From positions 47,870 through 111,869 of the IMG/VR virus record IMGVR_UViG_3300028864_000019: DNA of 64,000 nucleotides. One strand, 5' to 3'. Positions 42,247 to 59,716 of this stretch are shown here, piece after piece (position 1 is the first letter of the stretch; every line of letters begins with the position of its first letter). The notes below the pieces were generated by a model. That model did no database searches and had not been told where the DNA came from. It was given only the letters and a program-made list of their open reading frames with translations. Origin of the DNA: a virus. The position numbers were made by a program, and so were the translations under genes.

Positions 42247-42717
42247 ATGGATAATAAAACAATTGAACAAAATAGAGATTCTTTAATTGAATCACTGATA
42301 ACCGAAGAAAATGAATTACTACAAAAGATCAAACATTCAAGAGATAATAAGGATTTTGGTACTTATAAGAATCTAATTAGAGCTTTAGCAGATGTAACTT
42401 CTTTGAAACAAAAGGAATTAGCTAATATACCTAGAGAAACTTGGATAGAAAAGAGTTCTCATTATTACGAGGGTAGAGAAATAGAAAAAGGCGATAATGA
42501 ATATATTGCCACTTGGGAACAAAAAGGTGATGAAATAAGAAATCATAGAACATTTAAAGTAGAAAAAGAAGTACCTACTATAAAAATTGAGCTGAGTAAT
42601 GATTATATTATAGAAGAAGATAGATTAACTATTCCTATGAAGATTGGGAAGTATAATTATGAAATTCATGCTAGAAAAATTGATAATAAGTGGGTTACTG
42701 AAAGCAAAAGTATATAA
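42247..42717 (+). CDS. hypothetical protein
   Basis: 156 aa, AGGAGG RBS. Confidence 0.6.
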   Translation: MDNKTIEQNRDSLIESLITEENELLQKIKHSRDNKDFGTYKNLIRALADVTSLKQKELANIPRETWIEKSSHYYEGREIEKGDNEYIATWEQKGDEIRNHRTFKVEKEVPTIKIELSNDYIIEEDRLTIPMKIGKYNYEIHARKIDNKWVTESKSI

Positions 42718-42824
42718 AATATAACTTTTAAATGACAAATTAATGTATAAACAAATAGTAAATATCCCTAATTAAAGGGTTATAAATAAATTAAATTAAA
42801 ACAGAGAGAAAGAGGAGAAATATT

Positions 42825-43076
42825 ATGTTATTAAATAAAGATAGAAAAGAAGAGTTGTTCGCACAAGGAGAATTTAAGTCAAAAGCTGAAAGATCAAGAG
42901 TCGCTAAAGCCAATGAAGAAGCTCGAGGTGCAGAATTAAATGCAGTTATAAAAGAATATACAGATTTCTTAAAAGTTGGTGAAAAATTAGTAATTGGTAA
43001 TTTACATATAGAAAAGAAGCTAAAAGATGAAGAAGTAATTATTAAAGTTAAATATGTAGAACCAAAGGTTAAGTAA
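42825..43076 (+). CDS. small basic protein, possibly HU-like
   Basis: LKVGEKLVIGNLHIEKK resembles the HU beta-arm entry. Confidence 0.35.
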   Translation: MLLNKDRKEELFAQGEFKSKAERSRVAKANEEARGAELNAVIKEYTDFLKVGEKLVIGNLHIEKKLKDEEVIIKVKYVEPKVK

Positions 43077-43193: not shown

Positions 43194-44669
43194 ATGAGCA
43201 AAAAGAATAAGGATAATGATATAATTTTAAGTTTTGTCGGTGGAAGTAGGGACGATATTTGTGGATCTGCTTTATTAATTAGCTATCCTATAGGAAATGA
43301 CAAACATAAATGCGTTTGTCTAGAATGTGGCATGATACAAGGAGAATCAAAACCAGAGATAGAATATTCAATGAATAAAAAAATGGTTGAAAATATTCCA
43401 GTAGGAGGTATTTCGGGAGTGTTTTTAATGCACTCCCACGTCTGAGTAGACCATATTGGGAACACACCTATATTTGGACAAGATATATTCAAAGGTGAAA
43501 TAATTACAACAGAAGAATGTTTAATGATATCTAAAGAATTATTAAAAGATAGTGTGTATTTACATGATTGTTTAATAAAAGGTTTAAAAGCAAAAGGGAA
43601 AAGACCTAAAAACTTATATACTGAATTAGATATGTATAAGATGTTAGAGAAGGTAAAAACAGTTGAAACACATCAAGTATATAAATTTGATGATTGGTTA
43701 AGTTATGAATTTTATAATTCTGGACATGTATTAGGTGGTACTCAATTGAAACTTACTTTTAGACTACCTAACAATAATATAAAATCCTTAGTTTACACAA
43801 GCGATTTGGGATCAGATTACAATTTAAAATATAAACCATTTGTAAAGAAAAGAGATATAATTCCTAAGGCTTCAATGTACGTTTTTGAGGCAACTTATTC
43901 AAACTCTGAAAAGTGCTTTGATAAAAATTTAGTAGAAAAAGAAAGAAATGAACTAAAAGAAACTTTAACTAAATATTTAAAAAGTGGACACCGAGTATTT
44001 TTTCCTTCCTTTTCTTTCGGGCGTACCCAAGAGTTACAATTTTTAATAAATTCGTTTTTTAAAGATGAAGAATGGTTTAATGAAATACCAGTAACAATTG
44101 ATGGAAGATTAACTAATTCTATATGTGATACTTATAGCAAGATATTAAAATATGATGAATTTGAGGACTGGGAGAGAATAAAAAACTGGAAGAATTTTCG
44201 TTATAATAAAGAATATAAAGGTACTTTGGGAATATTATCTAAAAGAGAATGTGGAATTTACATAAGTTCTAGTGGATTTGTTCAACCTAAAACACGTAGT
44301 TGTGACTATGTTAAAAATTTTATGGGAGTTACAGGAGATCTAATTTGTTTCGTAGGATATTACGGAGCTGAAGGTTCAATTTCTCATGAATTAGTTACTA
44401 GACCAATAGGCACTCCTATTAAAATTGATGGAAGTACATTAATAAAAAGTTGTGATGTTCTTACTCAGAAAACATTTTCGAGCCACATTCAACAAGAAGA
44501 AATTTTTAGCTACTGGAGTCAAATAAACACAAATAAGATTCTAATACACCATTGTACTGAAGAAGGAAAAATTGAAATGAAAGAAAAGGGAACTGAATAT
44601 CTACAAAGTAAAAATAAAACAACTAAAATTGTAGGAGTAAGTAAATTTGCTTCACAATTCATTTTATAA
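43194..44669 (+). CDS. MBL-fold beta-CASP nuclease interrupted by in-frame TGA at 43443
   Basis: Both track ORFs share one frame; HSHV*VDH, SGHVLG, YTSDLG, EATY, FSFGRTQE, FSSH, H motifs. Confidence 0.85.
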
Positions 44670-44827
44670 ACAAATTAATGTAGAAATAAGGAGAGAAATA
44701 GAATGAAAAATTCAACTAAGCGTACATTATCAGGATTTAACTATCAGTCCTTAAATAATTTACAAAACCAACCAATTAAAATGTTAAATGAAAAGAAAAA
44801 GAATAACGAAAAGGTGGAGAAATAATT

Positions 44828-45019
44828 ATGAAAGAAACTAAAAATGTAAGTTTTTCAAAAGCAGTAATAACTGAGGAAGATGGAGAATTTAAGATTACAG
44901 AAGTTGGAAAAGATGATTCTAAAACATACAATCTAACAAATCAAATTAGAAAATGGATTGGAGAAGACGGACTAACTGTAACAATTAAAAAGGATAATGA
45001 TATACCATCTGAAGAATAA
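44828..45019 (+). CDS. small YonK-like protein
   Basis: 63 aa acidic beta-rich protein (ITEVGKDDSKTYNL) in SPbeta-like late-region context. Confidence 0.45.
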   Translation: MKETKNVSFSKAVITEEDGEFKITEVGKDDSKTYNLTNQIRKWIGEDGLTVTIKKDNDIPSEE

Positions 45020-45029
45020 AATGTGAACA

Positions 45030-45690
45030 AAGGCATGTACTAGAAATAGACGTGACCTTTCATTAAAAGAACTGTTTTATAAGGAGTAAAAGAATAACGA
45101 TCCTTTCCCTAGTGGGGGAATAATAATACCATGATTTGCTTGGCTATTGGGTAATACATAGTCTGTTATTCAAAGATTATAAAGAACGAGGTATAGATTC
45201 CCAACAAATATTGAAGTGAGTTAGAAACTCAGACAAAGAAGAATTTTGCCCAAGTGGGAATAAGGAAATCAATACTAAAAATTTACTAATAACATACTAA
45301 ATACTACAAACAGTGAATTTTATTAGTTGGTAATATACTTACCTCATACTCAATACTTTAAGTTGAGAGAACGACAATGAAGTATTTGCCTTGTTACGGG
45401 TAAATATGGAGTCTTATTTAGAGTTTTAGGTAAACTTAGGTGTAACTAGAGATTTGATCTTGAAAAATAAAAACCTATGATACAAATACGCTTCACAATG
45501 TGCGACAAAAATACATTGTATTGATAGATGGAGGCATTCTAGCTGTACCATCGTGACTAATTGTTCATTCTAGAATGATTAGATATTGGGTTGGAATATA
45601 TCCACACAAATAATGAATTGAGTTATGATGGCTCTAACAAAAAAGATGTATTCCCTTTTGTGATATATGGGAGGTTAAATAATAATATCA
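45030..45690 (+). ncRNA. candidate large structured ncRNA upstream of tRNA
   Basis: ~660 nt without long ORFs, with many hairpins; strand inferred from flanking genes. Confidence 0.45.
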
Positions 45691-45698
45691 CATTACAC

Positions 45699-45788
45699 GG
45701 AGAGTTGGCAGAGTGTCCGAATGCACTGGTTTGCTAAATCAGCATACGTTTATTCGTATCGAGGGTTAGAATCCCTCACTCTCCTCCA
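45699..45788 (+). tRNA. tRNA-Ser (GCT), atypical
   Basis: GGAGAGT/ACTCTCC acceptor, CTGGT-TTGCTAA-ATCAG anticodon arm, long variable arm, GAGGG-TTAGAAT-CCCTC T arm, encoded CCA. Confidence 0.88.
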
Positions 45789-47628: not shown

Positions 47629-48225
47629 ATGGGAGAAGTATATCAACAACGGAATTTATTGCTAGAAGAAATCAAATTAGTAGATTACAAAGATAATAAT
47701 ACACTATATATTGATGATGAAATTACAACTGAATTTATAATAATGTTATCAAGACAATTAAAGAAACTTGCCACTAAACAACTATCATTGAGCAAGGAAG
47801 ATAGAACACCAATAAAATTAATCATAGCTTCTCCAGGAGGAAGTTTAGTTGATGGAATGCATTTTTGTGACCTAATGGAATATTACATTAATAAAGGGAT
47901 AGAAATTCATACATATTGTACAAGCTATGCTTATTCAATGGCATTCAAAATATTTATATGTGGATCTAAAAGATTTGTATATAAGAGAAGTGATTTAATG
48001 TGACACCAATGGAATAGATTTAGATACGGTACTGAGACATATCAAGATACTGTAAATGATAGAGAGCAATGCGATAGATGGTACAAGTTAATAGTTGATT
48101 TAATAACTGAGAAAACAGGTATAACTAAAGAACAATTTGATAGCTATACAAAGAGTAATAAAGACTTTTATATGGATGGTGCTACTGCTTTAAAATTAAA
48201 TGTTGCTGATGAAATAATTATATAA
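47629..48225 (+). CDS. ClpP-like serine protease interrupted by in-frame TGA at 48001
   Basis: IASPGGSL, AYSMA (Ser), SDLM*HQ (His), KDFYM (Asp), ALKLNVADEII; frame stays open to TAA at 48223-48225. Confidence 0.85.
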
Positions 48226-51468: not shown

Positions 51469-52830
51469 TTGATTATGGAAATAAGAAAATGTAAAAAATG
51501 TGGACAAGAAAAAGAATTAAACGAGGAAAATTTTTATAAAAACAAAAATGGAAGTTTTGAAAATACATGTAAAGCTTGTAGGAATAAAGCAAAAACAGAA
51601 CAAGAAATTAAATATAGAGAAAAGTTCTATGCTAAAGATGGATATAAAGTTTGCAAATGTTGTAATATTAAAAAAGAGGTATCAGAATTTGGATTATATG
51701 CTAAAGCTAAAGATGGATATTTGTCTAAGTGTTTAAATTGTTCTAATGAGAAAGATACATGGAGTCAAAGGGATAAAGATATTATTATAGCTAATTATAA
51801 TAAATTAATAATCAAAGAGATAATTCCATTGCTTAGCGTTAATCGTACTGAAAAATCTGTATTACATATGAGTAAAAAACTAGGATTATATAAAATAAAT
51901 AATGTAGTAGAAGATTATGACAAAATAAAATATAAAGACATTAAAGGCAAAAGATACAAATTATGCAAGTGCTGTAATGAATATTTACCATTAGAATTTT
52001 TATATTTTCCAAAAGATAATACTTGTAGTGATGGTTTTAGAAACGTATGCAAAAAATGTAAAGGTGAGAACTATGCAATATCTGATTCATACATATGGAA
52101 AGATGAAGAAGTAATAATTATTCAAAATAATTATTCAGATATGACCAATAATGAAATGAAGAATGAATTTTTCCCACATTTAACAATTAATCAAATTATG
52201 GATAAAGCTCATAGTTTAAATTTACATAAAAGTGATGAAAGTAAATTAAGAGCAACAAATGACGCACAAACTGAGGAATGGAGAAATAAAATAAGTGAGA
52301 CTCGACTTAAAAATGGAAAATCAAAAGGCGAAAATAATCCAATGTTTGGTTCTGCAAGATTTGGTAGTTTAAATCCTAATTATAAAGGTGGAATTAGTAA
52401 TATAGAAAATGAATTAAGAAGAAATATTAACCAATGGAAATTAGATAGTATGAAAGAATGCAATTTCAAATGTATTATTACAGGGGAAAGGTTTGATCAT
52501 ATTCATCACTTATATAGTTTTGATAATATAGTTAGAGATACTTTAGAAGAATTAAAATTACCTATATATGAAACTATAAGTAATTATACAGATATGGAAA
52601 TAAAACAAATTATATGTAAATGTACAGAAATTCATTACAGGTATCCATTAGGGAAATGTATGAAAGAAGAATATCATAAAATATTTCATCAAAATTATGG
52701 ATATGGAAGAAATACACATAGTCAGTTTGATGAGTTCTTAATTAGATTTTTTGAAGGAGCATTTGACGAACAGTTAGAAGAACAATATAGAAGTAATAAA
52801 ATATTAAAAAAATTAGAAGTTGCTAATTAA
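51469..52830 (+). CDS. HNH-type homing endonuclease with zinc fingers and NUMOD3-like motifs
   Basis: Repeated CxxC, NPMFG/NPNYKGG, CIITG...HIHH...HKIFHQNYG. Confidence 0.75.
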   Translation: MIMEIRKCKKCGQEKELNEENFYKNKNGSFENTCKACRNKAKTEQEIKYREKFYAKDGYKVCKCCNIKKEVSEFGLYAKAKDGYLSKCLNCSNEKDTWSQRDKDIIIANYNKLIIKEIIPLLSVNRTEKSVLHMSKKLGLYKINNVVEDYDKIKYKDIKGKRYKLCKCCNEYLPLEFLYFPKDNTCSDGFRNVCKKCKGENYAISDSYIWKDEEVIIIQNNYSDMTNNEMKNEFFPHLTINQIMDKAHSLNLHKSDESKLRATNDAQTEEWRNKISETRLKNGKSKGENNPMFGSARFGSLNPNYKGGISNIENELRRNINQWKLDSMKECNFKCIITGERFDHIHHLYSFDNIVRDTLEELKLPIYETISNYTDMEIKQIICKCTEIHYRYPLGKCMKEEYHKIFHQNYGYGRNTHSQFDEFLIRFFEGAFDEQLEEQYRSNKILKKLEVAN

Positions 52831-54442: not shown

Positions 54443-56337
54443 ATGGGTATCACAATTATAAATAAAGGTAATTTGACTCAAAAAAAGTTAGAAGGTTATT
54501 TAAAATACAATGAAATACTTGTATGGGGAAGAAGAAATCCTGTAAAGTTCGCAGAATTAGTGTTGGGACTTGAACTTATGGATTATCAAAAATATACATT
54601 TCAAGAATCATGGAGCAAACAATTTGCATTATGGTTGATGTCTCGTAATGGAGGCTGAGTAAATCAACTTTAAGTTCTCCATTTATAATGACAAAAATGA
54701 TGTTATTTCCAAACTTTCAAAGCTTTATACTTTCATTAACCGCAAGTCAAAGCCAAGATACCTTTCTTTGACAACTTAAAATGGAGTCAATAGCAAAAAA
54801 ACAAATAGAATCTTTTTGTGGATTAACAGATATATTTTTAGGAGAAGTTTCTGCAAGTGCTAACCATGATGGATTTGTTCACTCTCCTCAAGGATTTAGA
54901 TGTAAGCTATTTAACAACAGTCAAGTTACTACTGTTTCTGGGGAAGAAGATAATATTAGAGGGAAAAGATCAAATTTAAATTTGTATGATGAAAGTGGTT
55001 TCATAAGTGAAAACTATATTTCAGTTACAAAATCATTTTGTACACAGGATTCGTCGTTTAAGTTAGGTGGTGGTATAAACACCGAAACTATACCGATGAA
55101 TATTCCTAATCAATTATTGTTTTGTTCATCTGCTAGTAGTACGGATTCTGCATTTTATACATTATATAAAGAGTGGGCAAAGTTAATGTTTGCAGGAAGT
55201 AAAGACCATTTTGTAGCTGACTTAAATTGTGAGGTTATAATAGGAGCTACATTAAAAGGTAAAAAATTAAATATACCATTGTTATCACAATCTAAAGTTG
55301 ATGATGAAATAAGGTCAAACTCAGAGAAAGCAAATCGAGAATATTTTAATCGTTTTGATGCTGATGGTGGAAATAAACAACCTATAAAACGTGCAGTAAT
55401 TATGAAAAATTCATCAGTTAGAAAACCATTATTAATTAATGAAGGAAATATAAAAAGACACATTGCAATTTCATATGATCCAGCACATGATTATGATAAT
55501 TCAGCGACATCAGTAGGAGAATATATATATGATGAACAAGTTGGATGGAAATTAATAATTCAAAACTGTGTAAGTCTTGTGGATTTAGGGAAAAAGAAAA
55601 AAACTCCAATGAGAACGCCAGAACAAATTAAAGAGATAAAACAAATGCTAATAAATTATAACGGAAAAGGCAAGGCTGATTATGAGAATATAGATTGTTT
55701 ACTAGTTGATGCTGGTTCAGGAGGTGGTGGTCCGATAATCGCAGATTATTTTATGGACGACTGGGAAGATGAACAAGGAAATAAACATAGGGGATTAATT
55801 GATAAAGAAGCCTGTGCTGAACATGTAAATTCTTATCCGAATGCAGTAGGAAAATTAAAATTAGTATCACCTAAAAAATATAAAACAGAAATGTATGATG
55901 ATTTTGTAGAATTATTAAATTTAGGACTAATTGAATTTACAGATAATTATGATATGAAAGGGTACTTAAGTCTACCACAGGAAGGAAAAGAGATTGAAGA
56001 AATTGATGAGGATACGAATGAAAAGAAAAAGGTAAAATCAATAGATTATAAACAATACAATCTATCTTGGGACGAAGAATTGGCATTAAAGCAAATTGAT
56101 AACGCAAAAGAAGAATTAATTGCAATAAGAAGACAAGGTGATGATATAAATTATAAATATGAACTGCCTCCTGATAAAAAGAGTAAAATGCATGATGATA
56201 GAGCTTACACAATGGTAATGTTAGCTTGGCATTTAAAAAACCTTAGACGTGACGGAATAGTTAATAAGCAAGCACCACAAGTTGATTGGTCAACAGCACC
56301 AACATTTGTTTCATCAGTAAATTTCAATTCTATATAA
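54443..56337 (+). CDS. terminase large subunit interrupted by two UGA-containing inserts (54656-54660, 54769-54777)
   Basis: MDYQ adenine motif, SRNGG|KST split Walker A, IRGKRSN.NLYDESGF Walker B, YDPA and HDDRAY nuclease motifs; about 626 aa if both inserts are skipped. Confidence 0.88.
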
Positions 56338-56362: not shown

Positions 56363-58111
56363 TTGACAAAAAAACAATCTACAGAAATCCCAATCCCTCA
56401 ACTACAAAAGATAGATTTAACTATACCAGTTCTATCAGAAGGCGAAACAAAACAAGTGTCTAATATCGGTGGGAATTACATCTTATCAGATATAGAAACA
56501 TCTACTACTAAAGATTATTTTGATCCAAACTACATACAACAAGCTACATATGATGCACAAAGATTAAGTAATATTTATAGTACTGTATTAGATAAAAATA
56601 CATCATCTTATGTTACAACTATGGACGAATTATCCTCATTAGCACAGAACACTCAAACTAGTATAGATAAAATAAAGAAAATAAACGGAATAGTTAAATA
56701 TTACATAAACAAAGAAGATTTAATTGGTAGAGTGGTTGAAACTATAGAAAATAATATAAACATAAATTACAAAATTGATTATCCATCTCCTAGCAGTAAA
56801 AAAGGTACTAAACTAAAAAAAGAACAAAAAATGGAAGACGAATTAAAAGTAGTAATAGAAAAGTTTAATAAACAAATTAATATACCTAAGTTAATAGCCG
56901 ATAATGCAGTTATTACATATACAGAAGGTAATTTTATATTCTATTTAATGGGTGATAGTGAAAATGGTTATTCTATAGTAAATTATCCAATGGATATTAC
57001 TGAAATCACACCAATGAGAATTGATGACGACCCAGTAGTGTCTTTTAATGTTACTGAATTATCATCAAGGTTACAAGAGAGTAGAACAAAATATGGAAGA
57101 TTAAAAACAAATAAACTTATTGATATTGAAAAAACAATAGAAGACGAAGTTAAAAAATGTTATCCTACTGAAATATATGACGCTTATAAAGGGAAAGACC
57201 AATATGCTTTATTAAATCCACAAAAAATAGGATTAAATAGGATAAATAATTTAAAAGGGCTATATGGATTAACACCTATATTTAAAGCACTACAACCTCA
57301 ATTAATGTTGGAAACGGTTGATAAAAGTGACCAAAAAGTATTAATTCAAAAGACTAAAAAGATTTATTTGCAATTAACTGAAAAAGAATTAATGGAAAAG
57401 CCAAATGCCATTAATATGATAGGTCATGCACATGTGAGTTTACTTGAAGCTATGTCAAAAGATACTATTATATATACTGCTGACCCACAAGTACAAGATT
57501 TAAAATTGATTGAACCTAAAACTGAGTTGACTGATGAAAAAACTAAATCAGGTTATAAGTTAAGAATATTAGAAGCATTAGGAATATCATTTATTAGTTC
57601 AGAAGGTTCTAAATCTATAACAACTACTAAAATAAACTATGACGAACTATTAAAAATGGTTAATAGAATAACTAAGAGTTTAGAACCAATCCTTAATAAA
57701 TACTATCAGTTGGTATGTGAAGAAAATGGTTTTCCTTTGGAATATTCACCTACTATAACTATTGAATCTACTAAGTTGCTGGATTTAGAAACATTATTAA
57801 GGTTAGTAGAAACTATGTACTCAAAAATTGGATTAAGCTACGATACTATTTTGACAATGCTAGGATTAAATCCTGAAATTGAAATTAATAAACGTGTAAA
57901 AGAAAATAAAGTAACAATAGATGGCGTAGAAATGACTACTGATGATATTATGAGTCCTCATATAACATCTTTCACAACATCGGGAAAAGACGGAGACACG
58001 GTAACACATAATAATCTAGATTCTAATACCAATAAGAATAATAGTAAAAAAAATGAAAATATAGATAAGCAAGAATCAGATCAATCACGAAAAGAAGCAT
58101 TAAAAGTATGA
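56363..58111 (+). CDS. portal protein
   Basis: 582 aa directly after terminase; YGLTPIFKAL portal-like motif. Confidence 0.75.
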   Translation: MTKKQSTEIPIPQLQKIDLTIPVLSEGETKQVSNIGGNYILSDIETSTTKDYFDPNYIQQATYDAQRLSNIYSTVLDKNTSSYVTTMDELSSLAQNTQTSIDKIKKINGIVKYYINKEDLIGRVVETIENNININYKIDYPSPSSKKGTKLKKEQKMEDELKVVIEKFNKQINIPKLIADNAVITYTEGNFIFYLMGDSENGYSIVNYPMDITEITPMRIDDDPVVSFNVTELSSRLQESRTKYGRLKTNKLIDIEKTIEDEVKKCYPTEIYDAYKGKDQYALLNPQKIGLNRINNLKGLYGLTPIFKALQPQLMLETVDKSDQKVLIQKTKKIYLQLTEKELMEKPNAINMIGHAHVSLLEAMSKDTIIYTADPQVQDLKLIEPKTELTDEKTKSGYKLRILEALGISFISSEGSKSITTTKINYDELLKMVNRITKSLEPILNKYYQLVCEENGFPLEYSPTITIESTKLLDLETLLRLVETMYSKIGLSYDTILTMLGLNPEIEINKRVKENKVTIDGVEMTTDDIMSPHITSFTTSGKDGDTVTHNNLDSNTNKNNSKKNENIDKQESDQSRKEALKV

Positions 58112-58132
58112 TTTGAAAGGTGGTGATATAGA

Positions 58133-59716
58133 TTGGACGAAGATAAAATAATTTTATATAGTAATAACAAAATAGAAATATCAGAATCTCAAGATGATTC
58201 ATATATGAATGTAAAATTCATTATATGTAATTTTGATCCCAATAGAAATAATGTAATGTTAAATAGAGATACTATAGAAAATTGGTTAAATACTTTAGTA
58301 ATGAAGCCACTAGTTGGATTAATAAAACCAAATAAGGATGATGAGTTGGATTTTACTTCACATCAAGCAAAAAAAGTTTATGAGTTAATTAATGGACAAC
58401 TTCAAGAAAAATTAAAGTTTGGAACTGATGCCTTTGGAGTATTTGATACTGTTCAAATTGAAACTATTGATGAGGTAGAATATATTACAGCTAATTGTAG
58501 AGTTTGGCGTAGGTTTGAAAATTGTTGCAAAATAATACAAGATAGATTTGATAGTGATGAACCATTAAATACATCTTGGGAAATATCAATTGTAAATAGT
58601 AATATAAATGCAATAGGTGGAAAACAAGTTAAAGTTATTAACGATGGTATTTTTATAGGACATGCGTTGCTTTCTAAATATACAAGTCCTGCATATGATT
58701 GTAGTGGTATGTTAGAAGTTGCCGAAGAAACACAACAAGAAGACGAATTTGCAGAAGCATTTATAAACGATTTAAGTGAAATCAATAGTTTTGAACAAAT
58801 ATCAGAGAACCAAGAAAACATAGAAACAAGCATTCAGTCTGATGAAAAATCAGTTGAAAATAAATTAAACGAAAACATAGAAGAAAAAGGAGGAATTGTC
58901 GATATGGCAGAAAATAAAAACAAAACAGAAGTGTCATCTATAACAACAAATGATTTATATGATAAATTAAGAGTTGCTATTAATTCAATAGACACAAACA
59001 AATGGATTTGCATATCAAGAGTATATCCGTATGAATTTAGAGCAGTAGGGTATGATTGGAATGCAGAGAGCGAAGATGACTTTATAGAATATGCTTACAC
59101 TGTTAATTCAGATGAAAGTATATCTATTACAAGCCAAACACCAGTTAAAATGACTTTTGTTCCATCAGTTCAAATTGATGAACAAATTCAAGAAATTCAA
59201 GCACAATTAAATGGTGTTAATGATGAATTATCAACTAAGAACGAGGAACTTTCTACAAAAATAGATGAAATTGTGAAACTTGGTGAGACAATTACAAGTC
59301 AACAAGAAACTATTGCAGAAAAAGAAAAGGCTATAGCTGAATTAGAACCACTTAGAATTGAAAAGGCTGAAGCTGATGCAAAGAAATTAGAAGCCGAAAT
59401 TGCAGAAAAAAAAGAAAACTTAAAGAAAATGGCTTTATCTAGTAAATATTTTACAGAAGAAGATATTGAGAATTCAGAAGCAATTAAAGAAGCAATTTCA
59501 AATTTAGACGAAAAACAAATTAAATGTCTAATAGCTGAAAGAGTTGTTGAACAAGCTTCAAAAGTAGAAATAACTACTAAAGAAGAAAAAGCAGAAGTTG
59601 AAACAAGTGAAAAAGAAGTAGAAGTTTCTACTGATTTAAACGCAAATACAAACTATAAGTATGAAAATTCAAGTTCTGCATTATTAAATTATGCTAGAAG
59701 AAATATTAAAAGATAA
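58133..59716 (+). CDS. prohead protease / scaffold fusion
   Basis: N-terminal H...SWEI...GHALL..PAY protease-like domain, acidic coiled-coil C-terminus. Confidence 0.7.
   Translation: MDEDKIILYSNNKIEISESQDDSYMNVKFIICNFDPNRNNVMLNRDTIENWLNTLVMKPLVGLIKPNKDDELDFTSHQAKKVYELINGQLQEKLKFGTDAFGVFDTVQIETIDEVEYITANCRVWRRFENCCKIIQDRFDSDEPLNTSWEISIVNSNINAIGGKQVKVINDGIFIGHALLSKYTSPAYDCSGMLEVAEETQQEDEFAEAFINDLSEINSFEQISENQENIETSIQSDEKSVENKLNENIEEKGGIVDMAENKNKTEVSSITTNDLYDKLRVAINSIDTNKWICISRVYPYEFRAVGYDWNAESEDDFIEYAYTVNSDESISITSQTPVKMTFVPSVQIDEQIQEIQAQLNGVNDELSTKNEELSTKIDEIVKLGETITSQQETIAEKEKAIAELEPLRIEKAEADAKKLEAEIAEKKENLKKMALSSKYFTEEDIENSEAIKEAISNLDEKQIKCLIAERVVEQASKVEITTKEEKAEVETSEKEVEVSTDLNANTNYKYENSSSALLNYARRNIKR

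What the first reader, a model, noticed from the sequence alone, without database searches (positions are those of the whole stretch)
43431..43460. UGA insert inside the HxHxDH metal-binding motif of the MBL/beta-CASP nuclease
The sequence reads H-S-H-V-*-V-D-H. Plain readthrough gives HSHVxVDH and breaks the invariant HxHxDH spacing. A Val(GTC) to Val(GTA) hop over 6 nt gives exactly HSHVDH. The stop sits in a small hairpin GTCT-GAGT-AGAC, extendable by CCCA/TGGG, reminiscent of the T4 gene 60 take-off stem-loop. Upstream and downstream ORFs are in one frame with no other stop.
Basis: partly seen in the sequence, partly recalled or inferred. Interest (0 to 1): 0.85.

Follow-up and report, generated by a model that had tools for sequence, protein, structure and literature searches.

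The report
Stop-hop insert in phage nuclease gene
A large phage's nuclease gene, and also its DNA-packaging (terminase) gene, carry tiny UGA-led inserts inside catalytic motifs; they have been kept under purifying selection and give a working enzyme only if ribosomes skip them, which would be a natural case of the short 'stop-hop' so far known only from laboratory constructs.

Summary
The beta-CASP gene (43194-44669, +) reads CAC TCC CAC GTC TGA GTA GAC CAT. All 105 full-length homologues examined have a strict HxHxDH, so 6 nt are extra. It is not an error: a 9%-diverged phage contig and independent peat-metagenome contigs have the identical string. Both halves are under strong purifying selection (dN/dS 0.04-0.09). 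TGA is an ordinary stop elsewhere, and no suppressor tRNA is present.

About 25 relative lineages (30-90% identity, some in Clostridium genomes) are broken at the same spot. Their inserts are 4, 5, 6, 7, 10 or 13 nt long, in any frame. That excludes plain readthrough as the general mechanism.

An 8-bp hairpin just 5' of the GTC (-14 kcal/mol, z -4.4) recurs in a 67%-identical relative with two compensatory pairs. It is absent from two uninterrupted homologues.

Both are missing from an 88%-identical relative.

Best reading (about 0.55): short programmed translational bypassing. It is unproven without protein data, and two relatives lack a matched landing codon.

The parts
43194..44669 (+). beta-CASP metallo-beta-lactamase-fold nuclease gene, one frame, interrupted by TGA at 43443
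   Evidence: PHROG 36352
43431..43454 (+). codons of motif 2: CAC TCC CAC [GTC TGA GTA] GAC CAT. H-S-H and D-H are separated by three triplets where homologues have one.
43440..43442 (+). proposed take-off codon GTC, the rarest Val codon in this phage (4.1%)
   Evidence: GTC is read in L084 and forced by overlapping gene calls in the P0121/P0315 and P0138/P0052 relatives.
43443..43445 (+). in-frame TGA, which would sit in the A site at take-off
43446..43448 (+). proposed landing codon GTA, the commonest Val codon (46.5%); decoding would resume at GAC 43449
43415..43437 (+). 5' stem-loop GGGAGUGU-UUUUAAU-GCACUCCC, ending 2 nt before the take-off codon
   Evidence: -14.3 kcal/mol, z -4.4, 0 of 200 shuffles as good. 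L084 has GGCUGUGU...GCACAGCC (-14.1, z -4.6), i.e. two compensatory pairs. The uninterrupted L083 and L085 give -4.2 and -2.1 (z about 0).
43440..43451 (+). small hairpin GUCU-GAGU-AGAC holding the take-off codon and the stop
   Evidence: Predicted, but not significant on its own.
43374..43459 (+). longest stretch of the gene without a single difference between the window and L003 (86 nt); it contains the insert
   Evidence: P about 0.015 for a run this long anywhere in the gene
54443..56337 (+). large terminase gene in three pieces (N-part 54443-54655, middle 54661-54768, rest 54778-56337)
   Evidence: profile hit to T4 gp17 Walker-A region at E 1e-7
54656..54660 (+). 5-nt insert TGAGT between the Gly and Lys codons of the Walker A motif (GGC TGA GT AAA); it changes frame
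   Evidence: The insert-less relative L089 reads GGT GGA AAA.
54769..54777 (+). 9-nt in-frame insert TGA CAA CTT after CTT, so matched Leu codons flank the stop
   Evidence: L089 reads TTT TTG AAA ATG. P0290 reads DTFLWLKME.
48001..48003 (+). in-register TGA in the ClpP-like gene (47629-48225), one residue before the catalytic His; probably a separate matter
   Evidence: The relative L087 has TGC (Cys) here.

Best explanation
The 6 nt are a non-coding gap that ribosomes skip, i.e. a short programmed translational bypass or 'stop-hop'.

Proposed steps (all inferred):
1. The ribosome decodes the rare Val codon GUC (43440) and meets UGA in the A site, where it pauses.
2. Peptidyl-tRNA-Val lets go of GUC.
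3. The mRNA slides 6 nt.
4. The tRNA re-pairs with the common Val codon GUA (43446).
5. Decoding resumes at GAC.

Nine nucleotides then specify one valine and the product has a normal HSHVDH metal site.

The 8-bp hairpin just 5' of the take-off codon cannot exist while that stretch lies inside the ribosome. Its refolding as the mRNA exits would favour forward movement, the role proposed for the 5' stem-loop of T4 gene 60. Ribosomes that terminate instead release an 83-residue fragment, so the site also sets a low ceiling on nuclease synthesis.

The same device is used twice in this phage's large terminase gene.

Shown: the insert, its conservation, selection on both halves, the variable frame in relatives, and the hairpin with covariation. 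Inferred: every step at the ribosome, the efficiency, and the purpose.
For: 1. Homologues never have extra residues here: 105 of 105 full-length ones are HxHxDH.
2. The insert has been kept while the gene diverged 9.4%. dN/dS is 0.09 upstream, 0.05 in the 27 codons between the TGA and the next ATG, and 0.04 downstream. The 86-nt identical run spans the site.
3. TGA is a true stop elsewhere, for example at 58109, followed by a Shine-Dalgarno sequence and a start codon. Code 4 does not lengthen genes, and no suppressor tRNA lies in the 112 kb.
4. No start codon lies between the TGA and the Asp-His codons in the window or in L084.
5. Relatives are broken at the same place with inserts of other lengths. 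L084 has 4 nt (DNA read). From overlapping gene calls on the same contigs, others have 5, 7, 10 and 13 nt. A gap whose length is free of the triplet rule is what an untranslated gap predicts.
6. N-terminal fragments end in Val in 19 of about 21 clusters, although Val is only 24% of x in intact genes. GTC is the codon wherever it can be read.
7. The 5' hairpin has z -4.4 and -4.6 with two compensatory pairs. It is absent from intact homologues.
8. The codons under it are the rarest available (CAC 14%, TCC 1.8%, GTC 4.1%), which points to selection on the RNA.
9. Two further UGA-led inserts lie in the terminase, one splitting the Walker A motif, which cannot work as two chains. Both are absent from an 88%-identical relative.
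10. Literature: stop-hops with matched codons work at low level in E. coli constructs (Weiss 1987, as reviewed in PMC5009743). Bypass of a 10-nt insert in the phiHau3 terminase was shown by mass spectrometry in E. coli (PMC10732093).
Against: - There are no protein, ribosome-profiling or reporter data.
An essential terminase needing two such events would demand far higher efficiency than has been shown for any short hop.
- The landing codon is not always cognate: L084 has GAG for tRNA-Val, the terminase Walker-A site has AGU for tRNA-Gly, and P0140 has NCA.
- In some relatives a start codon lies right at the site (ATG made by CAT+G, or NTG as codon x). Restart is therefore not excluded there.
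- DNA could be read at this site in only two interrupted lineages, the window with its near-identical relative L003, and L084. All other gap lengths are inferred from protein calls.
- The host and its tRNA-Val set are unknown.
Confidence: 0.55

Rival explanations
1. UGA readthrough. A near-cognate tRNA (Trp or Cys) or an unseen suppressor reads the stop, and the enzyme works with an 8-residue motif HSHV-X-VDH.
For: The insert is in frame in the window. UGA is the leakiest stop codon. The ClpP-like gene of the same phage has an in-register TGA where a relative has Cys, and that site can only be rescued by readthrough. About 46% of the phage genome is missing, so a suppressor tRNA could have been missed.
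Against: No homologue tolerates extra residues in this metal-binding motif. Relatives have 4-, 5-, 7-, 10- and 13-nt inserts, and the terminase has a 5-nt insert; readthrough cannot repair these. No suppressor tRNA lies in the 112 kb. TGA ends ordinary genes in this phage.
Confidence: 0.12
2. A tolerated scar. The inserts are footprints of, or shields against, homing endonucleases at conserved motifs. They are overcome only by spontaneous low-level hopping or frameshifting, without evolved signals. The nuclease is dispensable or needed only in traces.
For: Interrupted and intact forms are scattered over the tree, needing at least 9 changes of state. Gap sequences differ even between close relatives. 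The terminase Walker A motif is an intein homing site in relatives: a LAGLIDADG intein sits 3 nt from the window's insert. The gene 60 gap is part of a mobile cassette (bioRxiv 10.1101/2022.08.31.505936).
Against: The strong 5' hairpin with compensatory changes, found only in interrupted genes, and the rare-codon cluster look like evolved signals. The terminase is essential and needs two events. Both gene halves stay under strong selection. This rival overlaps the best explanation on mechanism and differs mainly in whether the event is 'programmed'.
Confidence: 0.15
3. Split gene. The two parts are made as separate chains, by termination at the TGA and restart close by, and then assemble into an active enzyme.
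For: In several relatives a start codon lies just before xDH. Examples are the ATG formed by CAT+G overlapping GTC TGA in P0001/P0315 and P0052, and codon x = NTG in the 5-nt types. Gene callers annotate two genes.
Against: The window and L084 have no ATG, GTG or TTG between the stop and the Asp-His codons. A break inside HxH|xDH, and inside the terminase P-loop (G|K), would cut a single metal- or nucleotide-binding loop in two. Most C-terminal gene calls start only at Met codons downstream of Asp-His.
Confidence: 0.08
4. The extra nucleotides are removed from the RNA before translation, or the gene is simply dead in this lineage.
For: The bypass is unproven, and small inserts starting with UGA could in principle be recognised by an unknown RNA-processing activity.
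Against: No system is known that excises 4-13 nt from bacterial or phage mRNA. A contig from an RNA library carries the insert unchanged (weak, since it may be DNA carry-over). A dead gene would not keep dN/dS at 0.04-0.09 on both sides, nor stay otherwise intact in about 25 lineages. No Rfam family matches the site.
Confidence: 0.07

Closest known systems
Synthetic 'stop-hops' in E. coli (Weiss et al. 1987; O'Connor et al. 1989 for tRNA-Val), as reviewed in PMC5009743
   Same: Matched synonymous codons flank a stop codon, so that 9 nt specify one amino acid. GUC UGA GUA and CUU UGA CAA CUU have exactly this layout, and the event needs a slow A-site codon.
   Different: Those were reporter constructs or mutants, low in efficiency and without stimulatory signals. 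The 2016 review states that no natural in-frame stop hop is known. Here the sites sit in natural, selected genes and come with a conserved hairpin.
Streptomyces phage phiHau3 large terminase: two 10-nt inserts (7 nt in prophages) after the rare codon UUA (Smith 2013; PMC10732093)
   Same: Short, frame-breaking inserts lie in a phage terminase at positions where homologues are contiguous. The A-site codon is slow to decode, flanking hairpins are predicted, and there is more than one site per gene.
   Different: The trigger there is a rare sense codon tied to the host's bldA tRNA, not a stop codon. The phage group and host are different, and no nuclease gene is involved. No sequence homology was tested or is expected.
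Phage T4 gene 60 bypass, with homologues in a MobA mobile cassette (PMC5462505; bioRxiv 10.1101/2022.08.31.505936)
   Same: A take-off codon is followed by a stop, with a matched landing codon. The take-off site lies in a stem-loop and there is a 5' stem-loop. The insert sits in a conserved enzyme gene and appears repeatedly at one location. There is a possible link to protection from homing endonucleases.
   Different: That gap is 50 nt, not 4-13 nt. It needs a defined nascent-peptide signal and a Shine-Dalgarno-like element in the gap. It is linked to the mobA gene, whereas no homing-endonuclease gene lies beside the beta-CASP gene here.
Mitochondrial 'byp' elements of Magnusiomyces (Lang 2014; Nosek 2015, cited in PMC5009743)
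   Same: Many short inserts in several essential genes of one genome are removed at translation, and an unusable codon sits in the A site.
   Different: Byps are 27-55 nt, GC-rich, mobile, and depend on a relaxed mitochondrial ribosome. Here there are only three or four sites of 5-9 nt.
Stop-codon-recoded phages (TGA read as Trp, or TAG as Gln) and code 4/25 hosts
   Same: In-frame TGA occurs in phage genes, including late genes.
   Different: Tested and not met. TGA ends normal genes here, TGG is the Trp codon, in-frame TGA occurs at only four places, and two of the inserts break the frame.

Membership tests
beta-CASP metallo-beta-lactamase nucleases | Beta-Casp domain between the two halves of the MBL fold | tested here: met
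   Pfam PF10996 at 31 bits against a cut-off of 27.7
beta-CASP metallo-beta-lactamase nucleases | Motif 2 HxHxDH with fixed spacing | tested here: inconclusive
   As encoded, it is H-S-H-V-stop-V-D-H. It is met only if 6 nt are skipped. All 105 full-length homologues meet it.
beta-CASP metallo-beta-lactamase nucleases | Motifs 3 and 4 (His, Asp) and beta-CASP motifs A (acidic), B (His), C (His) | tested here: met
   Invariant columns H178 (SGHV), D204 (YTSDLGS), E232 (FEATY), H431 (FSSHIQ), H452/H453 (IHH) in alignment A2
Programmed translational bypassing (hopping) | Insert absent from homologues, so that one continuous protein needs non-coding nucleotides to be skipped | tested here: met
Programmed translational bypassing (hopping) | Take-off and landing codons read by the same tRNA | tested here: met
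   GTC/GTA at this site and CTT/CTT at 54766/54775. Not met at the terminase Walker-A site (GGC/AGT) or in relative L084 (GTC/GAG).
Programmed translational bypassing (hopping) | Stop or slow-to-decode codon directly 3' of the take-off codon | tested here: met
   TGA in the window, L003 and L084. The rare CCC, AGG/CGG or TCG in inferred relatives; their usage is 6%, 12%/0.3% and 2.5%.
Programmed translational bypassing (hopping) | Stimulatory mRNA structure with evolutionary support | tested here: met
   The 5' stem-loop has z -4.4 and -4.6, two compensatory pairs, and is absent from two intact homologues. Only two independent interrupted lineages have DNA available.
Programmed translational bypassing (hopping) | One polypeptide spanning the gap, with the junction sequence shown | not testable with these tools
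   Needs mass spectrometry or a reporter assay.
T4 gene 60 / MobA cassette | 50-nt gap, nascent-peptide signal, adjacent mobA homing-endonuclease gene | tested here: not met
   The gap is 6 nt. The neighbours (42247-43076 and 44703-45019) are small ORFs, and the one scanned (42247-42717) had no Pfam hit. It works like gene 60 but is not a member.
Reassigned-stop phages (code 4/25 or suppressor-tRNA phages) | TGA used as a sense codon throughout, with a suppressor tRNA | tested here: not met
Selenoprotein gene | UGA at a Cys/Sec position plus a SECIS hairpin just downstream | tested here: not met
   The TGA lies in an insert, not at a residue position. No Rfam SECIS match at E up to 1.

The most novel reading that the evidence does not exclude
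A family of very short (4-13 nt) UGA-led bypass inserts populates the catalytic-motif codons of essential genes in Clostridium-type large phages: nuclease HxHxDH, the terminase Walker A motif and a second terminase site. Ribosomes skip them efficiently with the help of flanking hairpins, even when the landing codon is only partly cognate. The inserts persist because they destroy the target sites of intein- or intron-borne homing endonucleases, or because they gate late-gene expression through release-factor-2 activity. This would be the first natural stop-hop system and a small-scale counterpart of T4 gene 60.
Probability: 0.3. Interest if true: 0.92.

Novelty: new variant of a known kind. Interest (0 to 1): 0.85.

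Why it matters
- Short-distance stop hopping has been a laboratory curiosity since 1987. The main review of the field (PMC5009743, 2016) says no natural case is known, and my literature searches found none later.
- Here the layout occurs in natural genes under selection, at three sites in one phage and at the same nuclease site in about 25 lineages. A covarying hairpin gives a direct handle on mechanism.
- Some relatives lie in genomes of cultured Clostridium sporogenes, so the question can be tested at the bench.
- Gene callers split all these genes, so terminase and nuclease genes of this phage group are being mis-annotated as fragments.
- The closeness of one insert to an intein homing site offers a test of the idea that bypass gaps arise as protection from homing endonucleases.

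Tried and rejected
DNA of most interrupted relatives could therefore not be read, and their gap lengths are inferred from overlapping protein calls.
- Genome contigs: two scans found nothing.
- Phage and plasmid collections hold no close relative; phage c-st has only a distant, IS-disrupted homologue.
- A degenerate DNA pattern for the interrupted motif found only the L003 contig in IMG/VR.
The records behind L084 and L085 are not held. The L089, L101 and L090 records lack the nuclease gene.
- Read laying showed no indel variants. Gaps in contig cover mean nothing. The RNA-library contig carrying the insert may be DNA carry-over.
- Code 4/25 reassignment is rejected.
- The junction 58109-58133, with two TGAs joining two long frames, is an ordinary gene boundary with a Shine-Dalgarno sequence and a TTG start.
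- A role for the phage tRNA-Ser(GCU) reading the AGU inside UG-AGU was considered. It would add a Ser inside the Walker A motif and would put the nuclease out of frame, so it is rejected.
- A spliceosome-like GT...AG reading of the inserts fits only some of them and is rejected.
- A genome-wide search for further interrupted genes found only the four TGA sites.
- Structure prediction was not run, because it could not tell a hop from readthrough.

Full report
**What is there.** The window is the right-hand 64 kb of a 111,869-bp IMG/VR virus record, GC about 25% and estimated 54% complete. The phage occurs in at least 21 peat-metagenome runs. The frame from ATG 43194 to TAA 44669 encodes a 491-codon beta-CASP metallo-beta-lactamase-fold nuclease (Pfam Beta-Casp; PHROG 36352). 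It has one in-frame TGA at 43443-43445. The local sequence is CAC TCC CAC GTC TGA GTA GAC CAT. Of the 120 best homologues, 105 are full length and every one has a strict HxHxDH, with x = I 26, V 25, C 14, Y 11, A 10, G 8, F 6, S 4, H 1.

**It is real and kept by selection.**
- A second IMG/VR contig from another sample (L002/L003) differs at 139 of 1476 positions in this gene but has the identical 18-nt core.
- Nei-Gojobori dN/dS is 0.09 for the 83 upstream codons and 0.04 for the downstream part. It is 0.05 for the 27 codons between the TGA and the next ATG, based on four synonymous changes and one non-synonymous change.
- The longest stretch without any difference in the whole gene (86 nt, 43374-43459) holds the insert. 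The chance of so long a run anywhere in the gene is about 0.015.
- Logan contigs of two DNA runs and one metatranscriptome library cover the site without a difference. The last may be DNA carry-over.

**It is not a changed genetic code.**
- Reading TGA as Trp lengthens almost no genes.
- TGG is the Trp codon, and TGA ends 6 of 71 long ORFs.
- The TGA at 58109 is followed by AAAGGTGGTGA and a TTG start.
- The only tRNA in the 112 kb is tRNA-Ser(GCU).
- No Rfam family, including SECIS, matches the site.

**Relatives.** Searches with the N-terminal domain found about 25 clusters of short proteins, 30-86% identical, that stop at or just after the motif.
- Several end ...HSHV or ...HAHV.
- One cluster ends HSHC, one ends HCHA, and four end right after HxH.
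- Others run on for 3-39 residues in a different frame.
- C-terminal gene calls begin either exactly at xDH (P0001 MSP|VDH, P0024 M|IDH, P0052 MSDDS|VDH, P0058, P0059) or at Met codons further down.
- The two halves lie on the same contigs. P0121 and P0315 share 5 contigs, the longest 111,757 nt. P0138 and P0052 share a contig of 11,477 nt, P0124 and P0014 one of 30,793 nt, and P0319 and P0017 one of 43,340 nt.
- Two N-fragment clusters come from Clostridium botulinum, C. sporogenes and an uncultured Clostridium, which points to the host group.

DNA could be read for only one further interrupted relative. L084 (67% identical) has CAC GTC TGA G GAT CAT. That is a 4-nt insert, the downstream part is in the +1 frame, and no start codon is nearby.

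For the others, the out-of-frame tails fix the insert length (and my own reconstruction):

| Relative | Insert | DNA that fits the protein calls |
|---|---|---|
| P0121, P0126 | 7 nt | CAT GTC CCC A GTA GAT CAT (also yields P0001's MSPVDH) |
| P0125, P0127, P0128 | 5 nt | not fully resolved |
| P0140 | 5 nt | not fully resolved |
| P0155 | 10 nt | not fully resolved |
| P0138/P0052 | 13 nt | CAT GTC TGA TGA TAG T GTA GAT CAT |

A gap that changes length without regard to the triplet rule, while both flanks stay conserved coding sequence, is what an untranslated, bypassed gap predicts. Readthrough cannot explain it.

On a tree, interrupted and intact genes are intermixed, needing at least 9 changes of state. 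Some 'short' rows may be contig-truncated.

**Signals.**
- GTC is the rarest Val codon of the phage (4.1%) and GTA the commonest (46.5%). The codons before it (CAC 14%, TCC 1.8%, CAC) are also rare. This points to selection on the RNA sequence.
- These codons form the 3' arm of an 8-bp hairpin, GGGAGUGU-UUUUAAU-GCACUCCC (43415-43437). It ends 2 nt before the take-off codon and has -14.3 kcal/mol, z -4.4, with no shuffle of 200 as stable.
- L084 has GGCUGUGU...GCACAGCC at the same place (-14.1 kcal/mol, z -4.6). GGA/UCC has become GCU/AGC, a switch between the two serine codon families matched by Gly to Ala on the other arm.
- The uninterrupted homologues L083 and L085 fold to only -4.2 and -2.1 kcal/mol there.
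- N-fragments end in Val in 19 of about 21 clusters, against 24% Val at x in intact genes. GTC is the codon in the window, L084, P0121/P0001 and P0138/P0052.

**The same device elsewhere in the phage.**
- The gene at 54443-56337 is a large terminase. A profile of its homologues hits the Walker-A region of T4 gp17 at E 1e-7.
- Its N-part ends ...LMSRNGG. Then comes TGA GT, and the next frame starts KSTLSSPF. Homologues read SRN[AG]GKS without a gap.
- Further on, the window has DTF L * Q L KME where homologues have DTF-LKME. This is a 9-nt insert, TGA CAA CTT, after CTT.
- The closest relative with DNA (L089, 88% identical) reads AAT GGT GGA AAA AGT and TTT TTG AAA ATG, with neither insert.
- Relatives show breaks at the same two places: P0270 starts MTGKST, P0311, P0214 and P0229 start at ME.IAK, and P0290 reads DTFLWLKME.
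- Each insert makes a local hairpin that the insert-less relative lacks: -11.1 against -5.3 and -8.0 against -4.0 kcal/mol, z about -2.
- A P-loop cut between Gly and Lys cannot plausibly work as two chains, and a terminase is essential. These sites therefore argue strongly that ribosomes produce a continuous protein.
- A genome-wide search found only four such TGAs. The fourth is an in-register TGA in the ClpP-like gene (LM*HQW). The relative L087 has TGC there, so this looks like a simple Cys-to-stop change rescued, if at all, by readthrough.

**Mechanism.** The simplest single event that repairs the nuclease site, and the terminase site at 54769, is peptidyl-tRNA re-pairing from the codon before the UGA to the synonymous codon after the gap (GUC to GUA, CUU to CUU). 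This is the 'stop-hop' of Weiss et al. 1987, in which 9 nt specify one residue (PMC5009743). Short natural bypass has one published candidate, the phiHau3 terminase. That gene has 10-nt inserts after a rare UUA, and the junction peptide was seen by mass spectrometry in E. coli (PMC10732093). The 5' hairpin fits the role given to the 5' stem-loop of gene 60 and to 'pairing of mRNA exiting ribosomes' (bioRxiv 10.1101/2024.12.09.627546). My inference is that take-off from a weakly read rare codon and landing on a well-read one gives the event a direction.

Several facts count against a strict hop:
- The Walker-A site (GGC...AGU) has no cognate landing codon.
- L084 (GUC...GAG) has none either.
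- P0140 has none.

Either two-of-three pairing suffices, as reported for bypassing in the literature (from memory, not read here), or the resume site is set in another way. Efficiency is unknown, and two events in one essential gene would require far more than the roughly 1% I recall for unassisted hops.

**Why the inserts are there.** This part is inference. In four IMG/VR relatives a LAGLIDADG intein sits between the Lys and Ser/Thr codons of the same Walker A motif, 3 nt from the window's insert. Catalytic-motif codons are classic homing sites, and the gene 60 gap belongs to a homing cassette (bioRxiv 10.1101/2022.08.31.505936). The scattered distribution on the tree also fits repeated gain and loss. 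A regulatory role, as a ceiling on a nuclease or a gate on late genes through UGA termination efficiency, is equally open.

**Verdict.** The hop interpretation is the best-supported reading at about 0.55 but is unproven. Readthrough, a split gene, RNA removal and a dead gene are each disfavoured by specific results. The feature is a new variant of a known kind of recoding, of high interest, and directly testable.

Noticed in passing
window 54443-56337 (TGA at 54656 and 54769): The large terminase gene is in three pieces. A 5-nt insert TGAGT splits the Walker A motif between Gly and Lys, and a 9-nt insert TGACAACTT is flanked by CTT codons. Both are absent from the 88%-identical relative L089.
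   Followed up: yes
window 47629-48225 (TGA 48001-48003): The ClpP-like protease gene has an in-register TGA one residue before the catalytic His (LM*HQW). The relative L087 has TGC (Cys). The frame stays open for 73 more codons with ClpP similarity.
   Followed up: partly
L091:136-1500, L111, L116, L143: Terminase relatives carry a LAGLIDADG intein of about 375 residues (..RNGGK|ALSLDT...VTHN|STL) in the Walker A motif, 3 nt from the place of the window's 5-nt insert.
   Followed up: partly
L101:1501-3637, L102, L103: Terminase relatives 85% identical to the window match over 2137 nt for 519 residues. About 580 extra nt lie inside the gene (intron or intein?). Not examined.
   Followed up: no
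window 45372-45481 (within 45022-45666): ORF-free structured region between the nuclease gene and tRNA-Ser(GCU) (45699-45788). It gives a sub-threshold match to Rfam 'drum' RNA, 40.2 bits against a gathering score of 43, E 4e-5.
   Followed up: no
window 43403-43408: A perfect AGGAGG lies inside the coding sequence, 32 nt upstream of the take-off codon. L084 has GGAGGA at the same place. A possible anti-Shine-Dalgarno pause site; not tested.
   Followed up: no
window 51469-52830: A 453-residue ORF with HNH / endonuclease VII and Lar-like matches lies two genes upstream of the interrupted terminase.
   Followed up: no
proteins P0135/P0322 (NCBI WP_163279211.1): N-terminal fragments of the same interrupted nuclease gene (...GHAHV, then stop) are annotated as hypothetical proteins in Clostridium botulinum and C. 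sporogenes assemblies, on contigs of 195-213 kb. These are probably large phage or plasmid elements, and could serve as a culturable system.
   Followed up: no
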